Part shown: one piece after another, positions 11,193-45,399 of the stretch
Numbering within the stretch: the first letter of the stretch is position 1
Layout: each line of letters starts with the position of its first letter
Assembly (NCBI GenBank): GCA_963514005.1
Contig: OY740800.1
Location: 9,982,001 to 10,046,000, forward strand
From: Raja brachyura
Lineage: Eukaryota
Length of the DNA: 64,000 nucleotides
Direction of reading: 5' to 3'
Notes under the pieces: generated by a model
Told to the model about the DNA's origin: nothing
The model's database searches: none
The model's input: the letters and a program-made list of their open reading frames with translations, nothing else
Program-made: the position numbers and the translations under genes

Positions 11193-11295
11193 GTTAGAAA
11201 ACCTACGCAACAAGTTGGTGCCAATTTATTCGTACGACCCTAGTGAGGATCGTAATAATGTGGAAGAAGAAATAGATAATAATGGAGAAATAAAA
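11193..11295 (+). CDS. Internal exon of a SMIM29/C3orf18-family small membrane protein
   Basis: ttttttcttcaaag|G TTA GAA AAC ... ATA AAA|gtaagt, 103 nt, phase 2/0. Encodes (R)LENLRNKLVPIYSYDPSEDRNNVEEEIDNNGEIK, matching the family motif (SMIM29 [20 protein letters not shown]; C3orf18 [20 protein letters not shown], both recalled). Confidence 0.85.
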
Positions 11296-12456
11296 GTAAG
11301 TACATCCATTGAGAATTTATATTTTACTTGATGGAGTGTATTACAAGTGAAGGATGCCCACATTGTTTAAAAACTCCTTCTCCTGAACAGCCAGTGAGCA
11401 AAAGCACTTCATGATATAAAGTCTGACAAAACAGAAAATTAATTACAGATTCTCAAATTAGTTGATCCGAACTATAGTTGCAATTATATTGTTACAGTCA
11501 GACACATTTCCCAGAAAGTGGAAAAGTTAGCCAAAGTTCTAGCTTCTGCTAACTTTCGAGTAGTCCCTTGTGCATGTTCAAACTTTGGATAAAGATAGAT
11601 TGGGTTTTGCTTTGATGTTACCACAGAACATGCATCTTGTTAGCATTTGCAATTTTAGCTCTTGCCCTAGGTTTATTCCAGATGAGTGGTTCTCATCCTG
11701 GAGTTCACAGCCAGCATAGTGGGCATCAAAGATCGCAGAGCTTTAGAAGGCTTTAATATCATTAAGTTAAATTCATTAGAAAGTTCACAGAATCATAAAA
11801 CTAAACTCATGTTAGTGCAGTCCCCAGGCATCTCTGAGATAGTTTCAGTATTTTAAAAGGAGCAACCATAATGACAGGAGACATTCATGGTGGGGGCTCG
11901 AGTTCTCTCAGATGTGAGCAAGTGGAGTTTCCTTCATAAAAAGAGTTTGGCACCAGATGGCAGTACATGGAACTATCTGAGAAAGAGTTGATATCCTCAG
12001 AAGAAATATAACTGCAGAGAAGATTGACAAAAAGAAAGACATCAGTGTGCACATGGAACATTACAGTAATTCTGACCTCTGTACTTCCATAGTAAATGAT
12101 GATAGAACATAGAACATGAAAAAGCACAGCATGCAAACAGGCTCTTTGGCCCACCATGCCTGCACCAACAGTCATGCTATATAACTAATCCCATCTGCCT
12201 GCAAATGACACTTATCCCTCTATTTCCTGCCTGTTCATGTATCTGTCCAAATGCTTCTTAAATGTTGCCATCGCACCTGCTTCTGTCACCTTCCCTGTCA
12301 GCATGTTGTTCTGTGGGTAAAAGAACTGGCCTCACAAATCTCTTTTAAACGTCCCCCTCTCGCCTTAAATCCATGCCTTCTGGTAAATGACATTTCCACC
12401 CTTTGGAAAAAATAACTGAATATCTACTTGTCTATGCCTCATAATTAAAAAATATA

Positions 12457-12778
12457 CAGGTGCTCTCCGAGTTACGAATACGTTCACTTAAGATAATGTA
12501 ACTTTACGCAAATTCGCTCAGACATATTTAAAGCGAGTAATTATAATAATAACGTATTTCGTGGTATTCATTCATGACAGGATACAGTGTATGTTGTATT
12601 TGTTTAATTACGGGTGGTACAAGGGTGATTATTAAATAAAGTGAAAACATTATGGAAAGTGTATGCATACTATTACAATGTGGTTGACTATAAAAATGGA
12701 CATTCCTGACTTTCAGAGAAAGCAGCTTTTCAACAGTTGTCAGAAATAGAACCCATATGTAACCTGAGAACTGTTCTG
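12457..12778. mobile_element. Tigger/pogo-type (Tc1/mariner superfamily) non-autonomous DNA element
   Basis: TA|CAGGTGCTCTCCGAGTTACG ... TGTAACCTGAGAACTGTTCTG|TA: imperfect TIRs and a TA duplication. The CR1 sequence resumes on both sides. Confidence 0.7.
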
Positions 12779-13090
12779 TACATTTATCAGGTCAACCCTC
12801 AACCTCCGATGCACCACAATCCAAGTTTGTCAAAGCTCTCCTTATTGCTAATACACTCAAATCTAGGCAATATCCTGGTGATCCTCTTCTGCACCCTCTC
12901 TAAAGCCTCCACATAATTACTGTAATGGGGTGACCAGCACTGCACATGACATGCCAACTTTTATACTCAATCTCCAGACGAGACCAATGAAGGCTGTATG
13001 CCTTTTCCCCCCACTCTAACCACTCGTATTGCCACCTTCCAGGAACAATGGGATTGCACCCCAAATCCTTCTGTCTATCAGTGCTCCTAA

Positions 13091-13348
13091 AGGTCCTGTC
13101 CCACTTTCATGAGTAAAAAGTTGCAATTTCTTTCATCCCAACCATTTTTTTACTCGTGGACATTTTTTATCGGGCTGGAAAAAAAGTCCCGACTTACCTG
13201 ATGCCACGAGTACCTATGGCTAGCATAACGAGCCACTACGCTATATCTACGAACTCCTACGGACTCGTTACGAACATTCTGCGAGTTTGAATCAAGGGGA
13301 AAATTCGGGAGAATTTGTGAATCATCTCGTGATAGTGGGACAGGCTCT
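13091..13348. mobile_element. PIF/Harbinger-type MITE
   Basis: TIRs aggtcctgtcccactttcatgag / ctcgtgatagtgggacaggctct, flanked by taa (13088-13090) and gaa (13349-13351). Inserted in CR1. Confidence 0.8.
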
Positions 13349-13649
13349 GAAGGATGCTGCCATTTACTGTATACTTTCTGACCTCCCAAAAATGCATCAC
13401 CTCAAACCTGTCCAGATTAAATTCCAGCCGCCATTTCTCCACCCAAAATTCCAACTAATCTTTTGACATTCTTCCTCGTTCTCCACAAATCCAACTATTC
13501 TCATGTGATCTGCAGATTTTCTAATTTGACCACCCACATTTTCATCCAAATCGTTAATATATTACAAATGGCAGCCCCAGCAATGATCCTTGCTGAACAC
13601 CCCTGGTCACAGCCCGCCTTCAATTGCAAGTAAATCCTGTCCCTAAAAA

Positions 13650-13840
13650 TGTGTAAGAAGGAACTGCAGATGCAGGTATAAACCGAAGATAGACACTTCA
13701 GTTTTTTTGTTTTTTCCCCATTATGTACTATATTTACATATTCACATATTCTGTTGTGCTGCAGCAAGTAAGAATTTCATTGTCTTGTCCGGGACACATG
13801 ACAATAAAACACTCTTGACTTGACTCTTGACTCTCTTGAC
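13650..13840. mobile_element. Penelope terminal-repeat fragment (-) joined to a Rex1/Babar 3' tail (+)
   Basis: gaaggaactgcagatgc..gaagatagacac, then gaatttcattgtc..gacaataaaacactc(ttgac)n. Confidence 0.65.
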
Positions 13841-14024
13841 AAAGATCTCTGTCAAAGCTCCAGCAAGCTCCTTCCTAGCTTCCCTCCACATACTGGGACA
13901 ACATCCATCAGGCCCTGGGGACTTATCCACCTTAATGTGGCGATCAAGGCATCAAACACCGCCTCCTTAATAATCCAATGCATTGTCTAATTGAGATTCA
14001 TTGTCTTGGAGCTATTTTTCTTAT

Positions 14025-14082
14025 TTAGATTTTTTAGATTTGATTTAGATTTCGATTAGATTTAGATCTAGATCTAGATTTG
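14025..14082. repeat. (TTAGAT)-like microsatellite
   Basis: ttagatttttagatttgatttagatttcgattagatttagatctagatctagattt. Confidence 0.7.
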
Positions 14083-15099
14083 ATCATTCTCTCCCTATCA
14101 TAAATGAAATCAACTATCTAGAACCCAGTCACCACGAGTGGGTTTCAAGTATGAAATTAAAAGAAGACTTTGTTGGTTTGTTGAGAAAATGTTTTGTCAT
14201 TTTAAGAAACTTACCGACTTCTTTTAAAACTGGGATATTTATTTTATTGAAGATATGAATTGGAATTGTTATAAAATGGTTTGACTCTCCTCAGCATTTA
14301 CAATCTTATATGAAATCACTTGCTGTGGTGTGGGTCTGGCAGGGCTCAGGAGGAAGGACAAAAAAAGACAGGAGAAATATCATAAGCAAGCACTCCTTAG
14401 CAATTCAAAACATTTAGCTTATTCATCTATTTAGTTCCCTCAGTTTACTAATTTTAAATGTTTCTATTCTTTAATTACTTAACTAGAAAACCAATATTAC
14501 TATTGTCTGTAAGCCTTGGCTCTGATTTCAATTTTTTCAAGCCCCAGATGACACACGTTTGGCCAGCTCTAATTTGCTCCCAGCCATTAGCCACTGTTAT
14601 CTAACTCTTCTCTTTACCAACAATATTTTCCACAAAGTGTCCTTTATAGTGACTCAGTTGATGGGGACATTTGTTGCTCCTCTTCCTACCCCCAGACTCT
14701 CATTTTTATGAAAAGCTCACCCAGATATTTGGGTTAATTTATGTTTTTGTTTCATAATGTAAAAAGCATTTGAAAGGTCATAGACCCAAAACATTCACTC
14801 TTTCTCTCTGTAACGATGCTGCATGACATACGTTATTTAACCAGCATTTATTTTTCATTTTCACTTCCATTATGTAATCTGTACTATTTAACTGGAATAA
14901 TGAATAGTTTAGCAAATTAAAATTGAATCTCTTTGACTCTTTGTTCAGCCTTTGCCTTCTTTTTAATGGAATATATTTTTCCTGACCAGGGAAACACACA
15001 GGAATCTGGTCCTGGGCTTCTGTTAACACATTCTTCATTGTCCACTTCCTGCTCAACTTCATCTTCTTCAGGTCCACTCGAGGGGTCATGACTTACTTC

Positions 15100-15720
15100 C
15101 ATTCCGTTTCTGTGGAGTGCTTGTTGAGCCTAATGTGGGAACTCTGCCATAGATGAAGCATAAGTGGTTGTTGTGGAGAAGCACTAATACTGCCCTGGGC
15201 TTTGTAGAAACCACGAATGTGGTGCCTCTTCAGTTTTTAGATGGTCAGAGTCTATAAAGTATAGGAATGTGGAGATCACTATTGTCCTATTGGCCTGTTG
15301 CTCCTGGTGTGATCAATAGACCATTAACTTAGTCCCAGATATTTAGATCCTGTTCTTTAATCATTATTTCTTCAGTTGGCCATGATTAGTGGTGGTGTAT
15401 TGGAAGCGGAGGTGAATTTCATCATCCATGTCTGCTTTCTACAAGCGATGGCTCTTGTGATATGGAAAAGAATCCACATTTTCCAGGGATCTTTATTGTG
15501 AACAAATGGTTTTGTGCAGAATGATCAAGTGCTGGAGAGCCTTTGTTTCACAGATGTTTAGTGTAAGTCTCATTTTTTGTTAAATGAGTCAATGATGACT
15601 TGGAAGTTAGCCACTATATGTGCACATAAGCAAGTATTATCTCTGTAACTGTAGTTGGGCTCTGGTGTGAAGGCAACAATGGTTAAATTGTTTCCATTCA
15701 TCCTGAAAATATCTTCATCT
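15100..15720 (-). mobile_element. Degraded RTE (BovB-like) LINE fragment
   Basis: Minus-strand relic peptide LENVDSFPY..KADMDDEIHLRFQ, typical of the RTE RT thumb region. Confidence 0.65.
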
Positions 15721-15842
15721 TATTTTGCAACCTGGGGGGAAGTTCTGTCGACCATCTGAGAAGAGGGAAAAGGAGGGAAAGAGTTCACATTTCGGGGGGG
15801 TCAGGTCTGGAGAATGTTAGAGCAAAAATAGATTTAATGCGC

Positions 15843-16115
15843 AGTGGCACAATAACACAGTTAGTAGAGCTGCTGTCTCAGCGTTGGAGGCCTGGGTTTG
15901 ATCCTGACCTTGGGTGCTATTTGTGTGGAGTTTGCACGTTCGCCCTCTTACCGCATAGGTTACCTTCGGGCGCTCCCATTTCCTCCTATCTTCCAAAGGC
16001 ATGCCGGTTTGTCGGTTAATTGGCCTCTGCAAATTGCCCCTGGTGTGATCAGTGGTCAGCATGGACTCTGTGGACCGAAGGACCTGTTTACATGCTGCAT
16101 GTATCAATCGACAAA
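15843..16115 (+). mobile_element. V-SINE (HE1-like)
   Basis: tRNA head, gggtttgatcc B box, gtgtggagtttgcacgttc core. Confidence 0.85.
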
Positions 16116-16249
16116 ACAATATGGGAGAAAAGGAGAGAATACTGGCAGGAAATTTACTGGCAGGGAAATAAAACAAAAAAATGGAAATGCTCCCTCTCAG
16201 AAATTGTTGAAATCAGTGTTGCGTTCAGAAGTTTGTAAAAGTCCTTGTT

Positions 16250-16552
16250 TAGACTTTTGACTTAAGAGATAGAGCACAGAAACAGGACCTTTCGCCCGCC
16301 AAGTCTGCGTCAACCAACGATCCCCGTACACTAACACTATCGTACACACTTGGGACGATGTATGCATTTTTTACCAAAGCCAATTTACCTGTAAACATGT
16401 ACTTCTTTAGAGTGTGGGAGGAAACCGGAGAACCTTGAGAAAACGCATGCGGTCACAGGGAGAACGTACAAACTCCATACATACAGCACCTGCAGTCAGG
16501 ATTGAACCCGTGTCGCTGGCGCTGTGAGGCGGAAACTCCACTACACCGCTAC
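16250..16552 (-). mobile_element. V-SINE (HE1-like)
   Basis: Reverse-complement core gggagaacgtacaaactccatac and B box ggattgaaccc. Confidence 0.85.
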
Positions 16553-16624
16553 ATTGTTCTTCATGGCGTTCCCCCATGCCGGCTCCCCATTATCTTCCCC
16601 TCCCCTTCACGCTCATTGACCGCG

Positions 16625-16755
16625 AGGCCCCATTGCCACCGAGGCTCCTGCTACCGCCAACGCACTCGCAGCCGCCGCCAAGGCACCCGCAGCCGCCGCC
16701 GAGTTTCCTATTGCCGCCGCCGAGGCTCCCATCGCCGCCACTGCCGAGGCTCCTT
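16625..16755. repeat. GC-rich degenerate minisatellite (gccgccgccgaggctccc-like units)
   Basis: Several ~18-21-nt imperfect units. These explain the Pro/Arg-rich spurious ORFs. Confidence 0.6.
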
Positions 16756-17090
16756 CGGCCCAGTCAGGCCTCGCCGCCCGGCTTCACCGCAATCCCCTGG
16801 GAGGCCTGTGGGGCGAGTCGGGCCTGTCGGGGCACGTTCCGGTCTTCAGTTGTCGACATGCAAGGTATCCTTTTAAAACCGCCCCCACATTTCTTTATCC
16901 GGATGGACATTTGAGTGACATGCAATAAATCATTCGAAACATTAATTATTTTTCTTCACTAATGCCATTCGTGTTTTGGTTCACATTTCAAACAAATCTT
17001 TGTGATAATTTCTCTATTAATTGATTCATATTACAATAAAATTAAAGCTTGTCAAACTTCGCAGTGAACAGTAAATTTCTTTTTTTTTAG

Positions 17091-17195
17091 GATAATAACG
17101 AACTTTCAGCTGAGAAAGCAACACGACAGAATGAGAACTGTGACTCCAGTTCTGATACATGTATCGACAATCAAGAAACAGGTGAATCAGAGTAG
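17091..17195 (+). CDS. Probable last coding exon of the SMIM29/C3orf18-like gene
   Basis: Strong acceptor tttcttttttttttag. Phase 0 is compatible with the preceding exon, and the frame is open: DNNELSAEKATRQNENCDSSSDTCIDNQETGESE*. No homology recognised for this tail. Confidence 0.6.
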   Translation, partial: DNNELSAEKATRQNENCDSSSDTCIDNQETGESE

Positions 17196-17334
17196 TCCAA
17201 TTTTAAACTAGTATTCACGTATAAAAAATACTGCATGAGTACCTATTTAACAAAGATACAATCATTTTCTGCTTGTTTAATATACTAAATCTTGATGCAG
17301 GGAATATCAACCTGCCCTCCTCGTTGCAATATAA

Positions 17335-17600
17335 CTATAACCATATAACAATTACAGCACGGAACAGGCCTTCTCGGCCCTTCCAGTCCGTGCTGACCAT
17401 TTATTTTCCCCTAGCCCCATCTACCTGCACTCAGACCATACCCCTCCATTCCCTTCCCGTCCATATACCTATCCACTATAGTTTAAAATGTTAAAATCGA
17501 TCCTGCCTCCACCACTTCTGCAGGAAGATCATTCCACACAGCCACCACTCTCTGAGTAAAGAAGTTCCCCCTCATGTTACCCCTAAACTTCTGTCCCTTA
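17335..17600 (-). mobile_element. CR1 (HER1-like) 3' end
   Basis: cagcacggaacaggccttctcggccc ... ccacacagccaccactctctgagtaaagaagttcccc. Confidence 0.75.
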
Positions 17601-18829
17601 TGATATCAGTGGTCTCTTGAAAATGTGAAATATTGACTGGGTATGCAAAAGGATCTAGAAAGTACTAGCCCCATGGCTTCACAATTAATCAGGAACGTTT
17701 GTAGAACTTGATGCAAAAGCTGCCATGACTGCTGTTAAATGACCCACAGCTCCAGATTTATTTATGGAGTTGCATAAAGTTGGGAAAGAGCAGAAACAAG
17801 GAGGCAAATCATAATTGAGAGGGTAGATAAAGATGAAAAGGCTGTTACGAACAATGGGTAGGGTGCAAGACATAAGGAGGAGGAGGTAGTCAAAGGAGAA
17901 GAGGTATTGGAAGAAGAAAATGAAAGTCAAGAACTGCAGCTGGATGCGAGGCTGGATAGGAAAGATTGGGAAGGTAAAGGGAGTTAAAGGTCGAAGAGCA
18001 TGCTTGAGAGATGATTAACTGATCAGACAATGGGTGTATTGGGAGATGAAGTGAAACGAGTAAATGGAAGGTTAGGAAGTGGTTTAGGAGATTAATTGAT
18101 TCAGCTTCGTGAGGAAAACAAAAAGTGGGGATGAAGAAGTGGCTATGAATGAGACAAAGTGGATGGAATAATTTGGGCCAAAGAGCAAAACCTTATGGAA
18201 AGTAAGAAGAAACAGTTGGCCTAATGCCTTGCTTAGTGGGATATATGGGAAGGCAAATGCTTGGTTGAGGCTAAGTTTAATAAAGTAGGGAAAAGACGGA
18301 TGAAGATTTGTAGAATATAGATGGCGTGGGCAATGCTTACAACAAAGCTGCATACTTGAAATGTTTGGTGCAAGTAGCTAAACTGTTAATGTTGAGCCCT
18401 GGATAGGACATTGAAGGACATGGAACAAAATGCAATGTAAAGAAACATAATCCTGAAAGAGGCTAATATGGATGTCAAAGAACTAAATTATGGTGGAAAT
18501 ACAATCATTTTCTTTAAGCTGCTGTGCTGGTAGATCATTGTGCTAAGTGTGGAGAAACATCAATGGACGTTTGCAATGACGGATGGACCAAACATAGCCA
18601 CAAGAGTGGGACTGCTGGTAGTAATCAAAATAAATAGATATGAAATTTAAAAAATATTAAAAAATAAAAACAAGACCATGGAATGAGAAGGTATCCCTGC
18701 TTAAATGTTATATCTCAGGAGGAAGGAACTTCAATCACAAATCCAGAACGTCATTCTACACATTTGGTTTGAAAAGAATATGTTCAGGGACTCGGGGATG
18801 TCATAATTGTGACCATCTTTAAGATGCAT

Positions 18830-19595
18830 TAAAATATTTTCAAATGTTTCCCCCATCTGTGATAAATGTCTAACTCAAAATGCCACTATAGCACATTCCT
18901 TTGTCTCTTGTACAAAACTGCATAAATTTTGGAGTGAATTTTTTGGAATTTTTACAAAACTATTTAACACAAAATTGAACCCCAATACAGAACTGATTAT
19001 CTTTGGATCAATGGAAGAGGGAAGTAAACTAACTATATTCCAAGAAGCTTTTCTTAATTACGGTTTAATAACAGCAAAAAAACGTATCCTCAAATTTTGG
19101 AAAAACGCAACCACGCCAACCTTCAAAATGTGGATGTCAAATATGTCGGAAACGCTACATCTTGAAGAAATGAGATTCCTCCTAATAGGCAAAGTACACC
19201 AATTCTTAAAGACTTGGTCTCCATTTATCAAATTTTTACAAGTAGATGGTGCAACATAACATAACCTTAGAAATTAAATGGTTTAGAACCGGGTGACGGA
19301 TGGGCAAAAATACGAAATAGGTAGATCTCTCCTAATCTCTCTTTTCTTTACTTTCTCCTTTTTTTTTCAATCTTTTTAGCTTCTCATCTCTGTCCTTTAT
19401 TTATTTTGCTATCTGTTTCTACTCACTTGTCTATCTATTCCCGCACTCTTCATTTATTTTTTCACTCACTGTTCTTTTATTATTAAATCAAAAATACGAA
19501 GTTGTACAAGAATGAAAATATGTATGTATGTATTAGGTACTCAAGTACCACACTATTATACTTACTTCTAACAAAAATAAACAAAAACAAAAAAA
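18830..19595 (+). mobile_element. 5'-truncated L1/Tx1-clade LINE with A-rich tail and 15-bp TSD
   Basis: C-terminal CCHC-like CDKC..AHSFVSC..FW, ORF 18975-19259, and an A-rich tail. TSD atctttaagatgcat at 18815-18829 and 19596-19610. Confidence 0.85.
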
Positions 19596-20054
19596 ATCTT
19601 TAAGATGCATCTTTAAAATATATCTAACTGTAGTAGTATCTTCAAAGCAGTCTGTCTGTTCCCTGCTGCAATAAATGTAACCAGACTGCTGGTTCACAAC
19701 TACTTCTTCCCAGTGACTGAAGATCTACTCCCTGAATCAGTGTGGATTCCATCCATCTAAAGGGCATTAGATATAATCATCACTTGTGTGATAACTCCAG
19801 GGGAAATGAAGGGAGCGGCATGACCCACTATATCATTTTTTTTCAGACGCTCTAAAATAATTTGATTCTTTCAGAATTTAACTGACAAGGATTGTTTGGG
19901 AGAAGTAAGAACAATGAAGTTTTTAAAAAAAACTTATAGGGCACTGCATTGCATTTAATATTGGTTAGTGGGAATTAAGTTTAATGCAACTTCCAGATTG
20001 AAATGGAGTGGCTCCATGAATCTGCAATGTTAGTGTTACATTGTGGGGAGTGAC

Positions 20055-21861
20055 AAACAAAATGAAAATAGCAAAAGTAATACCATTATATAAAACTGGG
20101 GATAGACACCATTTCACAAATTACAGGCCTGTTTCTTTACTCTCCCAATTCTCCAAGATACTTGAAAAACTTTTTACAGAAAGACTTGACAATTTCATTG
20201 AAAAACATAAGCTTTTGGTCGACAGTCAATATGGATTCCAGACAGACAGATCAACATCTAGGGCACTAATGGAACTAATCGAGGAAATCACAAATTGCAT
20301 AGATAATAAAAAACTTGCAATGGGAATATTCATAGACTTAAAAAAAGCATATGATACCGTAAATCACGACATTTTATTCATGAAACTGGATAGGTATGGC
20401 ATCGGAGGGGTTGGATTGGATTGGATTGGGTGAGAAGCTATTTAAGAAACTGGCATCAATTTGTAGAAATAGGTGAACACAAATCAACTTACATGAACAT
20501 AACTTGTGGAGTACCTCAAGGGTCTGTGTTAGGGCCAAAGCTTTTCATAATAAACATTAACGACATATGCAGAGTATCAAATATACTGAAATTTTTAATA
20601 TTTGCCGATGATACGAATATTTTTTGTTCCGGTGACAATTTGAAGCAGCTTTTGGAGGTCATCACATCAGAGATGAATAAATTAAAACAGTGGTTTGATG
20701 TCAACAAATTGTCTCTAAATTTAAGCAAAACAAAGATTATGCTATTTGGAAAACATAAACCAAACCCTCATGTACAATTGAAAATAGATAACATAAGTAT
20801 AGAAAGAGTATATGAAAATAAATTTCTTGGTGTGATCTTCACAAAATCTACTGGAAACCACATGTAAACCACGTCAAAGCAAAACTGGCAAAGTCTGTAG
20901 TAATATTGTGAAAATCAAGACACATTCTGGAGCACAAATCATTACCTACTCTGTATAATACACTCATATTGTCATATCTGAGTTATTGTGTGGAGATATG
21001 GGGTAACACCTACAAAACCAACCTACAGCCATTATGTACATTACAAGAAAGAGCAATAAGAATTATCAATAATGTTGGATATCTTGAACATACCAATTTA
21101 TTATTTTTAAAGCCACATACACTGAAGTTCACCGATCTGGTTAAATTTAAGACTGCACAAAGCATGTACAAAGCAAGAAATAATTTACTTCCAGGAAATA
21201 TACAGAAAATGTTTATGGAAAGACAGGGTGGGTATAATTTGAGAGGGGAACATAATTTAAAAGAAACTCAATGTCAGAACAACTCTTAAAAGTATGTGCA
21301 CAGCAATCTGTGGGGTGAATTTGTGGAATGGTCTGGAACAGGAGATAAAACTTAGCACAAACATAATTCAGTTTAAAAAGATGTACAAAAACACTTTTTT
21401 TAAAGGATATTGGGATGAGGATAGGTGATTGTGAGTGGGATATTTGTTATGCTGATTGTATTGGGAAGGGTGATTATAGGGTGATGGGTTGTATATATGA
21501 CTGAGATACTGTATAGTTTATGAGGGTTTTTTCTTTTCTTTTTTCTTTTTTTCTCTCTTTTTTTGTATGGCTTTGTAAATATTTGATTAGTGTATAAATG
21601 TAAATAATTTGGTGTACATATAGCTACTGGTGTACATATAGCTCCTAAATTTGTATAAGATAATTATAAGCAGTTGAATAAGAGGTGGGAATTAATAAGC
21701 TTTGGCTTCTTCCCACTCCTTTTCTGAAACATACGATTTCATTTATTTATAGATATTTTTTCTGACACTTTATAAATATTCTTGTTTTGTTCTTTGTTTG
21801 CTGTTTCACACTTGCTTTTTATTCTTTTATTCTGTTTGAAATAAAGAATTAAATAAATAAA
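20055..21861 (+). mobile_element. AT-rich non-LTR retrotransposon (L2 group, Crack/Daphne-like), frameshifted RT + 3'UTR
   Basis: KIAKVIPLYK..NYRPVSLL, FIDLKKAYDTVNH, GVPQGSVLGP, FADDT, YCVEIWG, and a (TAAA)n tail. The clade call is tentative. Confidence 0.85.
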
Positions 21862-21864
21862 CAT

Positions 21865-22215
21865 ATGCCCGCAACGAAATATATAAAGTTCTCATGAGTG
21901 TTGACAGGTAACAAAGGGGAGGATATTTCTTCTGGTTAAGGAGCGTAGAGTTAACAGTGAAATATGAAGACGAGTGGCAGGCCATTTAGGTCTGAAATTG
22001 GAAGGCATTTCTTTACTCACAGTGATGAGATTTTGGGATTAAGCATGACAGAGGGCTGTAGAGACTCAGACGTGAATTGCTTTGAAAACAGAGATCAAAA
22101 TAAGAGATGTGGGGAGAAAGCAGGAAAATAATGTTTGAGGCATTCAACATTTTTAAATGGCAGAGAAGGTTTATGGAGCCAAATGATCCACCCTTCTTGT
22201 TTTATGTTCTTGTGG
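21865..22215 (+). mobile_element. Old CR1 3' fragment
   Basis: Degenerate CR1 3' motifs (aggccatttaggtctgaaattggaaggcatttctttactcac). Confidence 0.6.
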
Positions 22216-25200
22216 TCTTGCCATGAGATTTAAAGTGGTTTCATTAAATATTTTTGTTACTGCATTGGACGACATAACTAAGGACAAAAAACGATATCAT
22301 GACCTGCATTAGTGCCAAATCACAAAGTAGCAAGTGTTAGGAATGTCATTAAAAGTTTAAATAATAAATAAAACTGATTAAGTCTCCCTTTACATTTCTT
22401 TTGATTAACCATAATAAATACCATTTTAGAAATAATTTTCTCATGTGACAAATATGTTGTCAAATACTGTATATCCTGATGTACAGAAGTTTTGAGGAAT
22501 ATAGTTATTTTATCTAAATGAAGCGAGATCAATGAGAAAGTAGAACAAGTGATTATATTATAATATAGAAATCACTCATTGTAGTGTTGTTGTGCTTGAC
22601 ATTAAAGGCTTATGGTGCCTAAACAGCAATTACATTTCACTTTTATTAGTTCTTTCCTTTTGCAATATGCCATCCAGAGTAAAACATTTTTTATTAAAAA
22701 TATTAAACTTTTCATGTGACTCTGTATTCATTCAGTGAGTGGCTGAGTCATACTTACTCTCTGTATTGTGATCTTTAAATTAACTATGGGCACTAGGAAT
22801 GCCGTCATTGCCTTCCACTATTGCACTAGATACCTCAATACCTGCAGCTCGCTGATTAGCTTTTAGCCACCCCTTGCTTCCTTAAGAATATGGGTTTTTT
22901 TCTGGATCTTGGGTGACATCAGCATTGGACTCTGCTAAGATGACACTATGGCCAACTATTTTGCCAACACACGTCGTTGGTTACACATGAACAGTAACCA
23001 CTTTGTCGCACAGGACGTTGATTAGCAGCTTTCAAACTGTCGGGTAATGTGAGTAAAGATGCTACATGAAAAACTCTGTGTGTGGATATATGCAAAATTA
23101 CATATTTATAATAAGTTACATTCCACAGGTGCACTGAAGGAAACATCGATTGAGAATGGACATTGATACACAGATATATGAAGTCACCACATGGCAGAAT
23201 TAAACCGCTGGAAGATGAATTATTTTTACAACTATTTTTGAACTAATTTTCTGATCGTGGCACTGTTTTTGTTGCAAAGCTGGATCTTTCAACAATATAT
23301 TTGTAAATTGACTAGAAATGGAATGAAGTAAAGAAGGTTAATTGTGTTTGTTTTTGTTTGTGAATTTATCTTTCTATATGTGTGCATTCTTATTACTTCA
23401 GGAAGATCTTTGACAGCTTGGTGAAAGTTCTTTAGGTGGAGTGGAGTGTCCATGGATGTATCATGAAGCCTTTTGAGTACCTTAAATGAATATTTGTGCA
23501 TGAATATACACATATCTGAAACTGGTAATGTTTTGGTATTGTAATTAATGATGAATTCATCAATCCTTTTCTGTAAGAGGACAAACAGAATATGATTTGT
23601 TTTTAATTAGGGCTACAATGCAAAATGATGGTTTGGATATTTATTAAGGTATAAATTAATTTCAAGTCTTTTGCTCCTTTCATTGAATTGCACACATTGC
23701 AAATTTCAAAAGAACGTGACAAAAATGTCTTGCTGCATGCTTCTCTACAGGGATGCACAATGATATTTATGCTACTCCACTTTGCAAAGTGATGGTGTAT
23801 TTGTAATGTCACTACATGTGCCTTTGTGGAGAGAAGATACATTGCATGCCACAAGAACGTCCTTATTGTATGGAAATTAAAATATTCAAAGGTCACATAC
23901 GCGTGGTGTATACCGAAACTGTATCTTATTGAATCATGTTAACATGTTTTCTTGAGCACTGAGGAAACACATTAAATGTAAGGTGATAGTGTGGGTGGGT
24001 TTGGTAATTCTTGGTGGCTATTATTGGTTAACACATTAATTGTTCAGGTTGGATCACTTATTACCACATCAAATGTAATTGAAATCAATAAAGATGTTTC
24101 AGACAAGTTGCCATGTGTGGTTTTATGCTAATAATAGCAATAACTGAATGGAAATTGATATTTTGGGACCATTTCTACTGATATTAAACTATAGAAAGAA
24201 GCACTCAGCTATATTGTCGACCTCTGTAACAAGCTGTTTGAGCACAGCCTCGGATGAAAATACAACATTCCAGTTGTGCTCACAGACTAAAAGAGGAAGT
24301 CACCTAGAGCTAAGCTGTGGTCTCTTCTGATACGTAAGTGTTTGTCTAGTAAATAAGATTTCAGCATGTGTAAGATATTTCCAGTCATTTATTTACCCTA
24401 TATTCATTGTGTGGCCTCTTTGATGAGGTAGTGAAGGGTATCCATTGGTCACAGAGCAATCAATTGAACCAAAGAAATTCAACCTGATGCTAGTCTGTGC
24501 ATGATGTATGTGACCAGATATGTCAAGTGAATTTTAAGACTTGGAAGTTGACCTTTATCGAAGAAACCATAAATACTAAAGCGCATGACTCCCGAGAGAG
24601 GTTTTCCTTTCAAATGTGAAGAGGAGAAAATAAAGTGCTGTTGGGTAAGGGATCGTGGAGAGGGAGAATATCACTTTGTTGTCAGCTTGTGCATTTGTGC
24701 ACATTGTTTCAAATGGTCCACCTCTCCCATTTCAATCATTCATGTCAAGATATGAACAATCCAGCTAATAATTCTGAATGTCAAGATACACGTTGTCCCT
24801 GGGTAATGAATGGGTTCCATGTGTACAGACATTAATAATTAGATTTTGTCCATAATTCAGAACGTGCACAAAAATCATTTGATATAGTAACTCTACCTAC
24901 ATAATATTGCAATGAATAGCATTAAAAACACATAAGACTGATAGGAAAGAACAATTACTCAAAGTGGGAAGGGGAGGGGGGGAGGGGGGGGGGGGACTAA
25001 TTCTGCCAATCATAGGAATAAAACATATGTACGGAAGCCACACTTTTGAATGTAACAATATCATGGGATTTTATTTGTATGGAGGAGTGTCCATTAGTCG
25101 GGTATCTGTAACCTGAGATGCCCTTTATGCACAAAGATCTTGACGTTTGGTCACCAGCTTTTATCATTTTTGTCTTAATGTAATATCACATGGTGCAGAA

Positions 25201-29030: not shown

Positions 29031-29044
29031 CATGAAAGTTTACA

Positions 29045-34045: not shown

Positions 34046-35164
34046 CAAATGTTATCCATTATCTTGGATAACATTTGGGAGGCCAAGCTTTGACTGTAAT
34101 TACTCAATGCAGACATTACAAGATGGTTATAAAGGAGCTAAATCCCATGTTTAAATCACTCTAGTGGTTGTTTTTTTCCAATGGGAAAATCCAACCTCTA
34201 GAACACCCTCGTTCCAAAGCTCTTTCCTCCTTTTGTATCCCTCCATAAACTTATTTTTGTTCTTGTCCATCCAAAAGTCCCTTTCATGGCTGTGCCAATT
34301 GGTTTGCTATTACAGCAATGGAGTAACAATGGATTATACTTTAATTGTCCAGCTTTTGAGGTCTGGATATGTATATGCGTTAATTGTTATCCTTCAAATT
34401 TAAGTCCATTCTAGATTGACATTCGGATGAAAGGCAACATCTGCCAGTCTAGTTCAGAAACTACAGAACAGCTGGAATGATACAGGCAAAGAGCATTGGT
34501 GCAGCAAGCAGGTAGTTTGCTGACAATGGGATGAAGGGAAACACCCAGGGGTGTAACGTGGCATCAGATTTATCTCCAATGATCAGCATTCGTGGTGAGA
34601 GTTCGGGTTAGGAAATGTATCTGTGCCCAAACTAATAACATGATCACGGTGAACAGTAAAACAAAACCAGCACATCTCATTCACATATTCAAAATAGCAT
34701 ATCTTACAAAGTCTTCATGGTCGGTGATCAATGCATGGTTTGTCAGTTTAGTTTTCAATTACTTGTTGAATTAATCCTCTATTTTTCTCTCCATTTTGAT
34801 TTTTCTAATGGCGAATGCATGGATGAACTGCTTTCTGTTTAAAATATTGCAGCAACCACTGACTTTCTCTCATATTTTTTTCATTTTTTTATTTTTTGTT
34901 ACTGTTATTCTTACATTACTTCTAATAAAAAAATTAAAAAATAAATTAAAAAATATATATTTTTGTGTTCCTCAGCTCTACGTGAGGCCATACATGGGGT
35001 TAGGGAGAGAGCAAATGGTGACCGAGGACAATGGAGTGAGTGGTGGTGTGGTTAGTTCTGGAGAAACATCTACATGTCATATTCCATACATGAGGATCCA
35101 GCAACACTCACCCCATGAGGTTTAGCTTCCGGCAGTCGGGAAACAGACACTTGTAGTTTCAAAT

Positions 35165-37600: not shown

Positions 37601-39853
37601 AAAAAGTGAGACAAAGGCAGAACAGAGTATTCATGGTGGCCGAGTATCGTGGATGGCAACATGAATGGGTGAAAATCAAATGCTCTGTGTGTGTGTGTGG
37701 AAGAATTCAGTGAGATCATTGATGCAGACAGTGTAAAATGAAGAGGACATGAAAAATATTACGTGAAGTATTGTGCCAAACCAAATGTTAGATGGAAGAT
37801 TAGTTTTATGGCAGTTCAGTAGTCTCGTGGTCACTATTGTTGATACTATTTCATGATTAGGTTCAATTTCCTTATTTGAAATTGCCCAGTTAAATGTCGG
37901 ATTTAAACTTGTTTCTCTGTGTCATTTGTCTAAGCCACAGGATGCTGGTCTAGCAATTCTAACCACTTTGCTTCAATGCATTATCATCATTAAAGTGTAA
38001 CCCATCTGCTAGTAGTCAACAATCTTTAACCTTACCATCCTGCAGAAGCCATCAGAATTTTTATTCTTCAAGCCTGACATTCCTGGGTATAAAAAAAAGC
38101 AGTTAATTAGGAAATTTAATCTGGTAGCAGAAATCTCTGCTCAGTGTAGTTTTTACATTAACCATGCTTAACAGGTGGCTGCGTAAAACTCACACACAGC
38201 AGCTGTTTTACCACCATCGCAGCTTCTGCAAAAACTGCTTTCCATTTCTGCTCCGCAGCCCCTAAAATTCTAGCGGTAGGTCCACATTTTCCAGGAGCCA
38301 AGCGGACAGGCGCTGAGCAGTGAGGAGAAGGGATGGCCTGAGCGGACCAGAATAATCGCAGAAACTCCTCCGTTCATCTTTGCCAGGGTAAACCTAACTT
38401 TCCGAAACATCTTAAAAACAAATAAAAAAACTATTGCTAAATTGTAGTATTAAAAAACTAAAAATATTCAACCAAACCCAATAATTTAACAATATGTAGT
38501 TTTATTCTATGTCTTCCTTGCAGCCCCATATTATCCTGGTACATGATCCAAAGGCATTTCTCTATCATCTGCATAATGAAACTTAGAGAGCTCTCGGCTC
38601 ATTGTTGGGCTCTGCTAGGACTCCATTCATGGAGTGTACACAATAGATCGCCGGTAGTGCTCAGCCAATAGGTTTGGGTCATCCATATTTGTACAAATGC
38701 ACATTTATAAATTAGTAACAGTAAAAATCATTGCTATGCTGAGAGAAATTGACAATTCTGCATGGCAGCATTGGGCATGCATTTTTCTAAATGAGACTTC
38801 ACAGCAGAGATTTAAAAAATATTAGGCCAAGCACTACTCATTGTCACCCATTTGACTGCTTGCATAGCAAAGGCCGCTACTCCATTTTATGAAATCATGC
38901 ATGCTGTAAGGCAGCAACTCTACTGCTGCGCCATCGTGCTGCCCTAACAGTGACCTAGCAGGCTTTCCACAGTGTTCAGATTACCAATTGTGGTCAATAT
39001 GTTGTCTGTAAAAATAACTAAAAATCTATCAAAATACTCTTTCTTAGCAAGACATGCAGTACTCAGCTCCAGAAGTCATTATACTAGTCCCTCTCCCAGC
39101 TGTTCACGTTTCCTTTGCAATCTCTGAACAGTGGTGACGTAGGAACTGGAGTGGACATTTCAGGCCCTGAAGATTGAGTTTTGATTGTACTTGTGATTTT
39201 ATTTCAAATTTCACACCCTTGTGCCAAATCCCTTGGTTGCAAAGCCAACACAATCGTGAACATTTCAATTGTCCCAGCTCCCTCAGCATTTTGGATTTCC
39301 ACTAACTATTGTGTGAGACGGAATTTCCTGATTTAGTTTGCAAACTATCCTTGTTCCAATCTTACAATTATATCCTGTAGAAGTGGATTATTTCATCAAA
39401 GGAAATGGTTGCATTGTATTTGCCCTTTGTTTATCACTGTGAACATCCCAATTAGATTATCCTTTAAACTTCACTTCTCTTCCTAAAATGTTATGTAATA
39501 TATTAACAATTCAATCAATATAATGTTTACAGATCTGTATGAATACTGTTGGAGGCCATCATATGAATGTAAAATAGTTAGAAAATACTGTAAATCCTTA
39601 GCAGGCACATTTGCTGAGAGTAGAACAAATGAAAGATCCGATTAAAAATACATTAACGTGAAACTTTACCTCTGCTTCTATTCCAGAAATGGTGGCTGAC
39701 TCGAGTATTTCTGGGAATTCTTATTATTTCCAGAAATACTGGAAACCTATTTCAGGTTTCCGTCATCCACATTATTTTCCTTCTATATTACGTCTCACCT
39801 TCGTTTTGGTGTCCAAAAATGAAGAGCGTGGTTGGGACTTGGTTAAATCAACA

Positions 39854-40849: not shown

Positions 40850-41068
40850 TAGTTTGGTTTAGAGTTAGTGTGAAAACAGGCCCCCTGCACCAACCAACAC
40901 ACAACCTGCACACTGGGGGCAGTTTACAGAAGAATATGGCAGGGAACTGCAGCACCCAGAGAAAACCCACGTGGTCACAGGGAGAATGTACAAACTCTGT
41001 ACAGACAGCACCTGTGGTCAGGATCGATCTGGGTCTCTGACACTGTAAGGCTGCAGCTCCACTGTTTC
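40850..41068 (-). mobile_element. Internally deleted V-SINE
   Basis: ggagaatgtacaaactctgtacagacagcacc..caggatcgatctgggtctctg. Confidence 0.8.
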
Positions 41069-41749: not shown

Positions 41750-41846
41750 GTCTGAAGAAGGGTCTCGACTCGAAACGTCACCCATTCCTTCTCTCCAGAG
41801 ATGCTGCCTGTCCTGCAGAGTCACTCCAGCTTTTTGTGTCTATCTT
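41750..41846 (+). mobile_element. Solo Penelope terminal repeat starting at the hammerhead-like core, with a ~19-bp imperfect TSD
   Basis: ctgaagaagggtctcgactcgaaacgtcacc.. Flanks ctttccgtctgcaattgtc (41734-41752) and ctttccttctgctattgtc (41844-41862). Confidence 0.75.
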
Positions 41847-42667
41847 TCCTTCTGCTATTGTCATATATTGTAACATCTGCCATTGAAAGAACCAAGGCTA
41901 CCAATGACTTACAAAGTGTCTCGACCAGGCAAAAGTAGCATTAGATGAGAAAGAAAGCAGGCCCTCCAAATTATTGATATGGGATTTATATACATCCTTT
42001 TCTTCTTTGAAAAGTTTGATGCATCACTAGTGCGCTGGCATCCTTCAGAAATAGTTCTTATTTATACGCTCAGTCTCACAGTGAGAGGGAGCAAGCTATT
42101 TGACCGGCGGACATCACAGCTGAGCACGATCATGCCAAACATAACACAATGTGTCAAGGAGGAGAGCATTGACCGATCTTCCCAAGCAAGTGCCACGGAA
42201 AATCCTACGGCGATTCCCTCATATTTAAGATAATCTTTAATCACGTGGGAGTGTATTGAAATGTACAGAAACAAATACCTGAACTCTTTAATAAATAAGA
42301 TGGGATATACATTTTTATTGTAATTACTGCATTCCTGCCATTTCCTTCCCTTGTAAGAGAATAATTTTTTATTGCAATGAATCATTTACTGATGGTTCCT
42401 ACTATAAATCAGCCCCAATAAACTGAAACAGTGGTTGGGTCCAAGTTTATGAAACCAAGGGAGATCAGTCATAGCTCTGGCTTTAAAAATACAGAACTCT
42501 TTTAAGTCTCACGTTGAATTCAAGTGTTCTATTCAAGTGCTACTTCCAATAAAAAAGGCACTCTACGATAAGAATTCTGGGGACTGTGTTCAATCATGTA
42601 AACAGTTGTGCCAGTGTTAAAATGATAACGTCTCAGAATCAACATGGGGATCACAGAGGTTATTACA

Positions 42668-42673
42668 TTTATT
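42668..42673 (-). terminator. AATAAA polyadenylation signal of HMGA2
   Basis: tttatt on the + strand, inside the distal conserved-looking UTR block. Confidence 0.65.
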
Positions 42674-43021
42674 TTTGCTGAACAGACAGTGATAATCCTT
42701 AAAAGGAACCTTCTCAGCAAGCAAGCATTTCCAAGTACAATCAGACAGCTTCTGTAAGTGAATAGCAAAGCAATAGAATGACACACTCAAGGTACAGGGA
42801 GAGCAGTCTATCATTTTTCAAGCTCCCCCTCAAACCAAGACTAAAATTCGTATAATGGCAGAAAAGTTAAATGTCCAGTTTTTTTCTCGAGGTGACCGGC
42901 CAGAAGAGAACAGTCATATAAAATTTATCTCCCAAAAAAATAAACTATGTATAAAAAAAATTTATGATGCTCTCTCTGGTCTGCCGGCCATAAACAATTG
43001 AGTAGGTTTTCAGCTTGAAAC

Positions 43022-45331
43022 TGAGGTAACAGTAGGCCCCAAGAGGTAGTAGTGTGTAATTGATTGTACAACATACAGAGAAATACATGATAAACATTAG
43101 CATTTGAGAGACTTCCCAGAGCTAAATGTCCAACACGTAACAAAAGGCTTCCTTAGTTTGTGTTAGACCAAAACTGAGGTAAAACGTTACAGGGTTCTCT
43201 TTTAAATCGAAGTATATGGAATGAGTTTTCAAACAAATCCTAAGTTTAAAAAAAGGCTTTTTTTTTTGTTAAGAGAATTCAATTAATGCAAAAACATGTG
43301 GGAATACAACTAGTTATTAGCTCAGTCTTCAATAAACTGACAGGTAAGCACCATATTGTCCGAGGAGCCAGCCGAGTTTATGGCAAGGTCTTATAAATTC
43401 AGATGGAAGCCAGGAACCAGCTTTGGTTGTACTTTGGCTCAACACTAAAGCCTTACTGTCACAGGTTCTCCTGAGAAACTACCCCCTCTCCATCTCCCCG
43501 GCCCATTAAATGTTAAAAGTAGCAATATTGACAAGCAGAGAAGCAAGATAAAACTCTACATAGGAAGCATTTAAAAATACATCTGGTTGAAGCATATTAC
43601 AAAAAGGTAAAAAAATGAAATCACATTTGTGTAAAATACATGAAAATATGAATCAAGTACTTTTCTTACAATCTACTAATTTAAACACATATTCTTGATT
43701 GAATTATACAAAAAAACTGAGCTTGTATTTGTCACCTACAAAGCTTCATGTTTCCTTTGAAGGTTTCAGAATAGAAAGCAATTTAAAATGCTTTAGTGTC
43801 CAAGATTATTTTTTTCCTTTTTTTTTACAAAAATACTTTGACATGGGATTAGTTGCAGTCCTAAAATTTGTAACGATATTTTTAAACTGGTATTGTAATA
43901 ACATGTCTGTTCCTTTTTATTAACTGGAGGTAGGTTTTGGTCAACTGATTAGTCCATTTGCCTGGAGTTCATTTGAGGTACAAACTCGGACAGTTATTTA
44001 TCAAACACTACTGATAAAAATGAAAAATAAAAGCATTAGAGACATTTCCATTTCATTAATTGTAATAAGAAAAAAAAGGATCTGTTAAAAAGCAATGAGT
44101 AATTCAGTTTAAAAAAAAATTATATTCAAGTTAAAAGTACAAACAGAAAATGAGTTGCATTATCTGGCAATAAGCAACTCGTAAATATTCAGCAATTATA
44201 TTGCAATACAGAAATGCTTCAGGTATTCTGGTTTCCTCTATTAATATTTAAACTGCAGAACCATAATGAATTAACAGGTATCAGTGTTTATCTGTCCATT
44301 AATTTGGAAAAAAATAACCTGCATTGTATGTGTATAGCAGCATGTACTCGAGAGGCTGTCAAACTAATTGAATTAATCAGAGGTAGTTACAGATAATGGG
44401 GTAATATTGCAACTGTCACTAAAAGTGCTGGTTTGACTGAGTATTCGTTTGGATTGTTGGGAAGAAGAAGGAATGGTTTGAGGATCAATTGCACAGCACG
44501 AGTTCCCAAAATCAAGAAATGTGTTTGCTCAACCTAGCCACATGTCAGTGCATTGGAGGTAAAGTCACTTGTATATGTGATTCCTACTGGCAGACTCATG
44601 TTCCCTTTCTAAGTCACAATGACTTACACTGAAGTGGAATTTCTTGATTTCCTTTTGTTGTCCCTACAGAGCTGTAAAAAAGTCAATTGTTAATTCTTCC
44701 CTTCAATTACTGAATATATTTTTTAGGTGTTGAGTTAACAGCAGAATTAAATATATATATAAAAATCAGCCCTAGGATTTTCCTGAATTACAGTAAGTGA
44801 AAAACATCAATTAAAAAAAGTCTACTATAAAGTTTCTCTAAGAGCAGTGCCTATCCCTCATCTTTGGTGTTCTATACAGGGTGTTTACTAAGTTAGGGAG
44901 GGTGGGTTCTTGGGACATTAGTCCATGGTTTGTAAGCAGGATAGCTTGGTTCTATCAAAATGCCCCTATTTTGGCTGTGCATATGGTGATTTCTTCTTGC
45001 ATTATGATGTGCATTGTAATGAAAAATATAACTATTTTTGACCCACTCACCCTTACTTAGCAGCTCAATAAACTATAAGTATGTTGAGAATAAAAAAAAG
45101 AAAACAGTAATAAAATGTTGCATTATTAATCTGTGTCCCCTGTGTTACAGCAGTTTTTTTTTCCACTAAACCTGGGACTGTGAAGGGATTACAAAAAGGT
45201 AGATAGCAAAAGTCTTTCAGAGGATGTGTTTCTCCCCAGGATAAAGTGGACAGACCAATGTTAATTGGGAAAAAAAAGTGGTCAAGGTAGTGTCTTCTCC
45301 CTTCAAAAGACCCAACTGCTGAATGAGGTAG
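43022..45331 (-). promoter_or_regulatory. let-7 target-site array in the HMGA2 3'UTR
   Basis: Seed matches (+ strand GAGGTA core): 8mer 45324-45331; 7mer-m8 44380-44386, 43927-43933, 43043-43049; 7mer-A1 43974-43980, 43175-43181, 43022-43028; 6mer 44556-44561. Confidence 0.88.
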
Positions 45332-45351
45332 AAGTCAAATAACGTGGTTTC

Positions 45352-45399
45352 TTAATCTTCCTCTGTGGATTCTTGCGAGGACGTTCCTTCACCCTCTTC
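45352..45399 (-). CDS. HMGA2: HMGA2 exon 5 coding part (acidic tail EEGEGTSSQESTEED*)
   Basis: Acceptor ttttgtttgcag, then GAA GAG GGT GAA GGA ACG TCC TCG CAA GAA TCC ACA GAG GAA GAT TAA. In frame with exon 4 and resembles the human HMGA2 C-terminus EETEETSSQESAEED. Confidence 0.93.
   Translation of the reverse strand, partial: EEGEGTSSQESTEED

What the first reader, a model, noticed from the sequence alone, without database searches (positions are those of the whole stretch)
11193..45399. SMIM29/C3orf18-family gene tail-to-tail with HMGA2: a possible retained ohnolog of the HMGA1-SMIM29 pair
Seen: a canonical phase-2/0 exon on + encodes RLENLRNKLVPIYSYDPSED and converges on a minus-strand HMGA gene. 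That gene has HMGA2-specific traits (33-nt exon 4, SSQESxEED tail, let-7 UTR). Established (recalled): in human, SMIM29 lies convergently just downstream of HMGA1, whereas HMGA2 has no such neighbour (next gene LLPH), and C3orf18 is elsewhere. Inference: HMGA-SMIM29 microsynteny predates the vertebrate genome duplications, and this is a third family member, kept here and lost in mammals. The transmembrane exon and KKKR micro-exon were not found and probably lie upstream of the window.
Basis: partly seen in the sequence, partly recalled or inferred. Interest (0 to 1): 0.75.

Follow-up and report, generated by a model that had tools for sequence, protein, structure and literature searches.

The report
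Third SMIM29-family gene beside HMGA2
This skate DNA holds a spliced gene for a small membrane protein facing the growth gene HMGA2 tail to tail; it is a third member of the SMIM29/C3orf18 family, likely a leftover copy from the ancient vertebrate genome doublings that sharks and rays kept, ray-finned fish probably kept, and mammals likely lost.

Summary
Confirmed and extended. Three + strand exons (11193-11295, 17091-17181 and a missed last exon at 23129-23166) encode the cytosolic half of a PF27898 (C3orf18_N) small membrane protein. Contigs of 4 of 4 runs join exon A to B, and 3 of 4 join B to C. The gene converges on HMGA2 with no gap between them and no gene found there.

It is not the sole SMIM29 or C3orf18. 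Two skates each carry all three genes. In little skate this gene's orthologue is on chromosome 19 and SMIM29 on chromosome 24; C3orf18 is inferred on 16. These are the published 2-alpha, 2-beta and 1-alpha copies of ancestral linkage group E, so it is most likely a 2R ohnologue.

A ray-finned clade beside LLPH is probably orthologous, though trees do not resolve this. A further skate HMGA gene lies 130 kb from HEMK1, which suggests the pairing predates the first duplication.

No named lobe-finned or tetrapod member was seen, but the hit lists were truncated. NCBI already auto-labels the gene 'SMIM29-like'. My searches found no paper describing it. Its function is inferred only from C3ORF18 (endosome-to-surface cycling), and it lacks the family's Glu-Leu-Leu motif.

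The parts
11193..11295 (+). SMIM29-like exon A (phase 2/0): conserved juxtamembrane motif LRNKLVPIYSYDP and acidic run
   Evidence: 18 relatives; joined to 17091 in 4 of 4 runs
17091..17181 (+). SMIM29-like exon B (phase 0/1), donor GTGAAT
   Evidence: tblastn with skate orthologues at 84-90% identity; joints on both sides
23129..23166 (+).
   Evidence: joint 17181>23129, GT..AG, in 3 of 4 runs; stop position
23167..24100 (+). SMIM29-like 3' UTR; AATAAA at 24087
   Evidence: contigs of three runs end at 24097, 24106 and 24108; the X19 contig matches 23125-24005 with 0 differences
39756..39842 (+). Possible alternative last exon about 2.5 kb from the HMGA2 3' end, homologous to the tail of a Mobula isoform
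   Evidence: tblastn E 1.7e-6; acceptor present and stretch not repeated elsewhere in the window; use in this species not shown
42300..45351 (-). HMGA2 3' UTR with 7 let-7 seed matches (3' end approximate, set from poly(A) signals)
45352..45399 (-). HMGA2 last coding exon, acidic tail
63166..63198 (-). HMGA2 33-nt penultimate exon

Best explanation
The window holds the last three exons of a spliced third SMIM29/C3orf18-family gene lying tail to tail with HMGA2, likely the 2-alpha ohnologue of an ancestral HMGA-plus-small-membrane-protein gene pair, and predicted to encode a type III single-pass protein that cycles between endosomes and the cell surface as C3ORF18 does. Shown: exons, splicing, adjacency to HMGA2, three separate family genes in two skates, and the orthologue on little-skate chromosome 19 with SMIM29 on chromosome 24. 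Inferred history: one convergent pair was copied at 1R and 2R. Copy 2-beta became HMGA1-SMIM29 (both kept in human). Copy 2-alpha became HMGA2-SMIM29L (human kept only HMGA2). Copy 1-alpha became a third HMGA with C3orf18 (human kept only C3orf18; skate appears to keep both). Inferred mechanism (about 45%): a short N-glycosylated outer N-terminus, one helix, a basic stop-transfer run, and a cytosolic LRxxLxPxYxYDP motif that binds a conserved trafficking partner. Loss of the downstream Glu-Leu-Leu motif would change its sorting relative to the two mammalian paralogues. The long-lived linkage is most simply passive retention, since human broke two of the three pairs.
For: Splice joints. Triplets in Amblyraja (contigs of 47.7, 40.6 and 49.7 Mb) and Leucoraja. 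The Leucoraja orthologue (66 of 70 identical residues to the window's exons) is on a 41,584,660-bp contig and SMIM29 on a 33,952,483-bp contig; these equal Leri_19C and Leri_24C. Leri_19C carries Msrb3 (33.47 Mb), Llph (33.95 Mb) and Tmbim4 (33.98 Mb), and LLPH and TMBIM4 lie next to human HMGA2. SI Table 3 of PMC10115646 gives linkage group E as 1-alpha LER16, 2-alpha LER19+22, 2-beta LER24. 'Hmga2-1' is at Leri_16C 28.62 Mb and Hemk1 at 28.49 Mb; HEMK1 neighbours human C3orf18. Whole-protein tree: SMIM29 (99/99) and C3orf18 (98/87) each include skate and bony-vertebrate members and exclude this gene's clade (100/100). AU tests on that alignment reject a shark-lineage duplicate of SMIM29 (p 0.021) or of C3orf18 (p 0.042). 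The core tree groups SMIM29 with this gene and the ray-finned clade at 85/90, as 2-alpha/2-beta predicts. The ray-finned gene has the locus tag adjacent to LLPH in Albula goreensis and is fused behind LLPH in an A. glossodonta model. Glu-[Leu/Met/Ile]-Leu is present in 0 of 22 cartilaginous and 1 of 102 ray-finned members, against 75 of 77 SMIM29. Topology signs in orthologues. C3ORF18 trafficking from PMC13066455.
Against: On the 70-column core none of four rival groupings was rejected (p 0.22-0.42). The whole-protein tree separates the cartilaginous and ray-finned clades by a 97/98 branch and puts this gene with lamprey (92/89), not with SMIM29. Their union has only 52/56 support in the core tree and is merely not rejected (p 0.22). 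The position of C3orf18 on Leri_16C rests on gene-ID and accession order, not on coordinates. No skate HMGA1 position was seen (0 hits for HMGA1 in that supplement). The runs are assembled contigs whose RNA nature is a guess, and one is flagged 'probably DNA'. No function was tested.
Confidence: 0.82

Rival explanations
1. The gene is a fast-evolving duplicate of SMIM29 or C3orf18 that arose within cartilaginous fish and moved next to HMGA2 by chance.
For: The core alignment does not reject these groupings (p 0.217 and 0.317). The branch to this clade is long, 1.05 changes per column.
Against: Rejected on the 104-column alignment (p 0.021 and 0.042). It would need a chance landing beside an HMGA gene, in the same convergent orientation, on another copy of linkage group E. 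A ray-finned clade sits beside LLPH.
Confidence: 0.05
2. The cartilaginous-fish gene is an ohnologue, but the ray-finned 'SMIM29-like' clade is a different paralogue (a tandem copy or a fourth lineage), so there are four family lineages with reciprocal losses.
For: The whole-protein tree splits them by a starred branch. Their C-terminal tails do not align and identity is about 30-33%.
Against: They occupy the same predicted slot and orientation between HMGA2 and LLPH. Both lack the Glu-Leu-Leu motif. The core tree joins them weakly, and the AU test does not reject their union. No species among the named hits had both types.
Confidence: 0.2
3. The HMGA and SMIM29-family genes are held together by regulatory constraint (shared enhancers or interplay of their 3' ends), not by passive retention.
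For: The pairing appears on up to three paralogous chromosomes (window). A Mobula isoform splices to a stretch homologous to one about 2.5 kb from the HMGA2 3' end.
Against: Human keeps HMGA2 with LLPH and TMBIM4 as neighbours and C3orf18 among CACNA2D2, HEMK1 and CISH. The main 3' ends are about 18 kb apart and separated by repeats.
Confidence: 0.2
4. The exons are a decayed or untranscribed relic, or the adjacency is an assembly artefact.
For: The 5' exons are not in the window. The RNA nature of the runs is a guess.
Against: Open frame over three exons, exact GT..AG joints in four studies, full-length orthologues in 14 species, and no gap between the genes.
Confidence: 0.02

Closest known systems
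SMIM29 (C6orf1), neighbour of HMGA1 at human 6p21.31
   Same: PF27898 family; about 100-120 aa; short outer N-terminus with a sequon, one helix, a basic run and the LRxxLxPxYxYDP motif; lies on the strand opposite an HMGA gene (PMC7831742, passages; 'directly downstream' is recalled).
   Different: Separate clade and chromosome; skates have their own SMIM29 (14 of 27 aligned residues identical to the window peptide). Lacks the Glu-Leu-Leu motif and SMIM29's C-terminal Trp-containing tail.
C3ORF18 (human 3p21.31, near HEMK1, CISH, CACNA2D2)
   Same: Same family and predicted topology. The only member for which I read functional data: a type III protein moving from TfR-positive endosomes to the surface on insulin/PI3K-AKT signalling (PMC13066455, abstract, sections 9 and 11).
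   Different: A separate C3orf18 exists in 9 cartilaginous species that also have this gene. Longer N-terminus, the RPSRLVF tail and the Glu-Leu-Leu motif are absent here.
NCBI 'small integral membrane protein 29-like' models of cartilaginous and ray-finned fish
   Same: The window's gene is the orthologue of the cartilaginous-fish models (14 of 18 hits carry this name).
   Different: The label is automatic and is mixed with 'C3orf18 homolog' and 'SMIM29'; it does not mark a distinct ohnologue. Orthology of the ray-finned models is likely but not resolved by trees.
2R ohnologues kept in cartilaginous fish but lost in tetrapods
   Same: Common pattern (established knowledge; several such studies appear in the listing).
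   Different: Here a two-gene pair can be followed across three duplicated chromosomes with reciprocal losses.

Membership tests
SMIM29/C3orf18 family (Pfam PF27898 C3orf18_N) | Juxtamembrane LRxxLxPxYx[YF]DP motif | tested here: met
SMIM29/C3orf18 family (Pfam PF27898 C3orf18_N) | Match to the family model | tested here: met
   PF27898 precomputed on 17 of 18 orthologue hits; the Atlas gives its name. The local Pfam scan gave no hit above cut-off for the exon peptides or orthologues; that copy seems to lack the model.
SMIM29/C3orf18 family (Pfam PF27898 C3orf18_N) | One transmembrane helix after a short outer N-terminus with a sequon, followed by a basic run | tested here: met
   In orthologues only: helix 21-39, 7 Lys/Arg after and 0 before; sequon in 10 of 10. 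These exons lie outside the window.
SMIM29/C3orf18 family (Pfam PF27898 C3orf18_N) | Glu-Leu-Leu motif after the core (my own observation, not a curated criterion) | tested here: not met
   0 of 22 in this clade, against 75 of 77 SMIM29, 33 of 38 in the C3orf18 bin (which also caught lamprey and some invertebrate rows) and 44 of 54 invertebrate proteins
SMIM29 orthologue | Falls in the SMIM29 clade and is the genome's SMIM29 | tested here: not met
   not rejected on the short core
C3orf18 orthologue | Falls in the C3orf18 clade and is the genome's C3orf18 | tested here: not met
   not rejected on the short core
2R ohnologue | Paralogues lie on different descendants of one ancestral linkage group | tested here: met
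   Leri_19C and Leri_24C by exact contig length; Leri_16C by gene-ID order only; linkage group table
2R ohnologue | Duplication predates the split of cartilaginous and bony fish | tested here: met
   weaker on the core
2R ohnologue | Branching order ((2-alpha, 2-beta), 1-alpha) | tested here: inconclusive
   Core tree 85/90 in favour; the whole-protein tree differs
2R ohnologue | Single pro-orthologue next to HMGA in amphioxus or lamprey | not testable with these tools
   Amphioxus and lamprey proteins were found but no animal genomes are held
HMGA2 | 33-nt penultimate exon, acidic tail, let-7-rich 3' UTR (criteria recalled) | tested here: met
   the linked gene's orthologue is on the Msrb3-Llph-Tmbim4 chromosome
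HMGA2 | Three AT-hook motifs | not testable with these tools
   Those exons lie beyond the window end; no minus-strand RGRP was found

The most novel reading that the evidence does not exclude
A convergent HMGA / small-membrane-protein gene pair older than the first vertebrate genome doubling survives in skates on three paralogous chromosomes. This includes an undescribed third vertebrate HMGA gene beside C3orf18 and an undescribed third SMIM29-family protein. That protein lost the dileucine signal, took on a fish-specific surface role, and in teleosts became the upstream, partly co-transcribed neighbour of the egg fertilisation gene bouncer.
Probability: 0.3. Interest if true: 0.62.

Novelty: new member of a known kind. 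Interest (0 to 1): 0.42.

Why it matters
It sorts out a small, poorly studied membrane-protein family. One member, C3ORF18, was recently tied to endosomal recycling and insulin sensitivity. The analysis shows three vertebrate lineages where databases mix the names, so fish 'smim29' or 'c3orf18' results may concern a gene humans likely lack. It explains why human C3orf18 has no HMGA neighbour and HMGA2 has no SMIM29 neighbour: reciprocal losses from one ancient pair. It points to a third HMGA gene in skates. The loss of the Glu-Leu-Leu motif offers a natural variant for testing what that motif does. It is evolutionary bookkeeping of a familiar kind, not a new mechanism.

Tried and rejected
The window's genome is not held, so the three-gene test was done in two related skates. 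Pfam scans of the exon peptides and orthologues gave nothing above cut-off. The Atlas search with the 36-aa peptide gave no usable hit. The PDB profile search gave 3 matches, all E 0.35 or worse. Rfam found 0 matches. No run holding the stretch is on record as RNA. The reading that the gene stops at the in-frame stop just after exon B (about 17195) was rejected as the main form because contigs splice at 17181. Candidate last exons at 23479, 38787 and 41938 were dropped in favour of 23129. An LU-domain (bouncer-like) or LLPH gene between the two genes was sought and not found (best E 0.61). Ohnologue tables of PMC6193309 held none of six gene names in 10 files. Coordinate searches for the C3orf18 or SMIM29-like promoter in the little-skate supplement found nothing (that file is cut when stored, and file 1 is unreadable). 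The catshark supplement could not be read. Both may bear on gene order. Three look-ups of earlier scan findings returned nothing. No structure or complex prediction was run, because a single helix with disordered flanks would not decide anything (Atlas model pLDDT 0.40).
Full report
1. Observation. The window is repeat-rich vertebrate DNA. The gene's peptide is closest to skates (66 of 70 identical residues to a Leucoraja protein); I did not determine the species. A 41-codon window query found 18 proteins among 26 candidates, from 14 shark and ray species; 14 of the 18 are named 'small integral membrane protein 29-like' and 17 carry PF27898, which the Atlas names C3orf18_N. Aligning these back to the window gave exon B at 17091 and a weak candidate near 23125. 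Sequence and script showed exon B ends at a GTGAAT donor at 17181, and exon C runs 23129-23166 with AATAAA at 24087.

Assembled contigs of four runs from four studies were laid on 10900-24500. The joint 11295>17091 appears in 4 of 4 runs and 17181>23129 in 3 of 4, both GT..AG. One contig matches 881 bases of exon C and UTR with no difference, and two contigs carry about 380 further bases upstream of exon A. The tool marks the RNA nature of these runs as a guess and one as probably DNA, so these are spliced forms rather than proven transcripts. The transmembrane exon and basic micro-exon were not found in 1-11192.

On the minus strand are the HMGA 33-nt exon (63198-63166) and last exon (45399-45352), and a UTR with 7 let-7 seed matches against a shuffle mean of 0.28 (0 of 1,000 shuffles reached 7). 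That these are HMGA2 traits is recalled. The 18 kb between the two 3' ends gave no match to LLPH or Ly6/uPAR queries, its long open frames look like retroelements or chance, and it has no assembly gap.

2. Is it SMIM29, C3orf18 or a third gene? Amblyraja radiata has all three on contigs of 47.7 Mb (this gene), 40.6 Mb (SMIM29) and 49.7 Mb (C3orf18), and Leucoraja erinacea has all three as well. A separate C3orf18 was seen in 9 cartilaginous species that also have this gene. In a tree of 60 hand-picked rows, out of about 200 proteins fetched by then, and 104 columns, SMIM29 (99/99) and C3orf18 (98/87) each unite skate and bony-vertebrate members, and this gene's clade (100/100) lies outside both. 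AU tests on that alignment reject joining it to skate SMIM29 (p 0.021) or to cartilaginous C3orf18 (p 0.042). On a 70-column core of 34 rows no rival was rejected (p 0.22-0.42), so the trees are suggestive, not decisive.

3. Synteny. The Leucoraja orthologue lies on a 41,584,660-bp contig and SMIM29 on a 33,952,483-bp contig. These are exactly the lengths of Leri_19C and Leri_24C in the little-skate genome supplement (PMC10115646; I saw supplement rows only). Leri_19C carries Msrb3, Llph and Tmbim4 within 33.47-33.99 Mb, and LLPH and TMBIM4 are next to HMGA2 in human (PMC8441011, passage). SI Table 3 lists linkage group E as 1-alpha LER16, 2-alpha LER19+LER22 and 2-beta LER24, with 1-beta not found. 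The numbers 1/2 mark the first duplication and alpha/beta the second (PMC7269912, passages). Hemk1 and Cacna2d2, neighbours of human C3orf18 (PMC8198806, table passages), are on Leri_16C. Gene 'C3orf18-2' has an ID among those of Cish, Mapkapk3 and Cacna2d2; this is placement by ID order, not coordinates. So the three family genes map to the three surviving copies of one ancestral chromosome, with this gene and SMIM29 as alpha/beta sisters. The core tree agrees at 85/90; the whole-protein tree does not.

The same supplement places a further HMGA gene, 'Hmga2-1', at Leri_16C 28.62 Mb, 130 kb from Hemk1. 'Hmga2-2' has an ID near Msrb3. Human SMIM29 is on the strand opposite HMGA1 (PMC7831742, passages). 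The skate HMGA1 position was not seen.

4. Range. Profile searches found a further clade in ray-finned fish, from bichirs and sturgeons to percomorphs. Of 306 fetched proteins, 107 fell in that clade and 24 in the cartilaginous one. The 96 and 22 that carry names are all ray-finned or cartilaginous; the rest are unnamed or the window's own. No named lobe-finned fish or tetrapod appeared, but only 120 of 271 hits and 150 of 189 were listed and one search is word-seeded. Loss in mammals, or in tetrapods generally, is therefore likely but untested on genomes.

The ray-finned gene has the locus tag next to LLPH in Albula goreensis and is fused behind LLPH in an A. glossodonta model. That is the slot and orientation expected between HMGA2 and LLPH (human gene orientation recalled). 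Both fish clades lack the Glu-[Leu/Met/Ile]-Leu motif (0 of 22 and 1 of 102) that SMIM29 (75 of 77), the C3orf18 bin (33 of 38) and invertebrate members (44 of 54) mostly have. Their orthology is probable (about 75%). The trees give 52/56 for it in the core and a 97/98 branch against it in the whole protein, not rejected by AU (p 0.22).

5. How it likely works. Orthologues have about 20 outer residues with an invariant Asn-x-Thr, one hydrophobic helix (residues 21-39), seven basic residues after it and none before, then the family motif and a variable acidic tail. This fits a type III membrane protein. C3ORF18 is described as type III, colocalises with transferrin receptor, moves to the surface on insulin through PI3K-AKT and supports endosomal recycling (PMC13066455; abstract, sections 9 and 11, passages). 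A review lists C3orf18 and SMIM29 as predicted gamma-secretase substrates of undefined function (PMC13507816, passage). I infer the same route for this protein (about 45%): the motif kept from invertebrates to vertebrates binds a trafficking partner, and the missing dileucine alters sorting. None of this was tested. The linkage is most simply passive, since human broke two of the three pairs.

6. Novelty. The gene is already in NCBI under automatic names. Eight literature searches (listings only unless cited above, and only the top 20-40 rows where more papers matched) showed no paper describing a third family member, the ohnology, or a third vertebrate HMGA. Subscription journals are largely outside the library, and gene-tree databases may already encode the relationship. 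Verdict: a real gene and a correct interpretation; a new member of a known family with an instructive duplication history. Interest 0.42.

Noticed in passing
PMC10115646 supplement file 2: Leri_16C 28.62 Mb (gene LE20664): A further skate HMGA gene ('Hmga2-1') lies 130 kb from Hemk1 on the 1-alpha copy of linkage group E. It may be a third vertebrate HMGA ohnologue that human lacks. A search for 'hmga3' listed 14 of 15 papers, none with a title on a fish or shark gene.
   Followed up: partly
P0186 (Merluccius), P0085 (Scortum), P0205 and P0243 (named 'protein Bouncer isoform X3'): In teleosts the SMIM29-like gene is merged in gene models with Ly6/uPAR exons or filed under bouncer, so it appears to lie just upstream of the egg fertilisation gene. 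The medaka bouncer paper (PMC10267171, passages) had no hit for synteny or neighbours. No such gene lies between the two genes in the window.
   Followed up: partly
window 39756-39842 (+): A stretch with a splice acceptor matches the alternative last exon of a Mobula isoform. It lies about 2.5 kb from the HMGA2 3' end and supports the same adjacency in a second batoid order. The frame differs here.
   Followed up: partly
window 56602-56634 (-): A second 33-nt, phase-0, stop-free candidate exon with strong acceptor and GTAAGT donor inside the last HMGA2 intron; possible alternative exon, unverified.
   Followed up: no
window 17182-17195 (+): If the exon B donor is skipped, the frame ends in a stop a few codons later, so a short intron-retaining form is possible.
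   Followed up: no
window 45997-46144: A 148-base assembly gap inside the last HMGA2 intron, about 600 bases from the last exon.
   Followed up: yes
hit lists: No named cyprinid, catfish, salmonid, gar or coelacanth member of the third clade was listed. This may be real patchy loss or search truncation.
   Followed up: no
window about 2990-4000, 6600-7620, 20170-21330 (+); 29940-30870, 32800-34060 (-): LINE-type reverse-transcriptase and related retroelement fragments and many SINE copies fill the introns and intergenic DNA; ordinary for a cartilaginous fish (seen; not classified).
   Followed up: no
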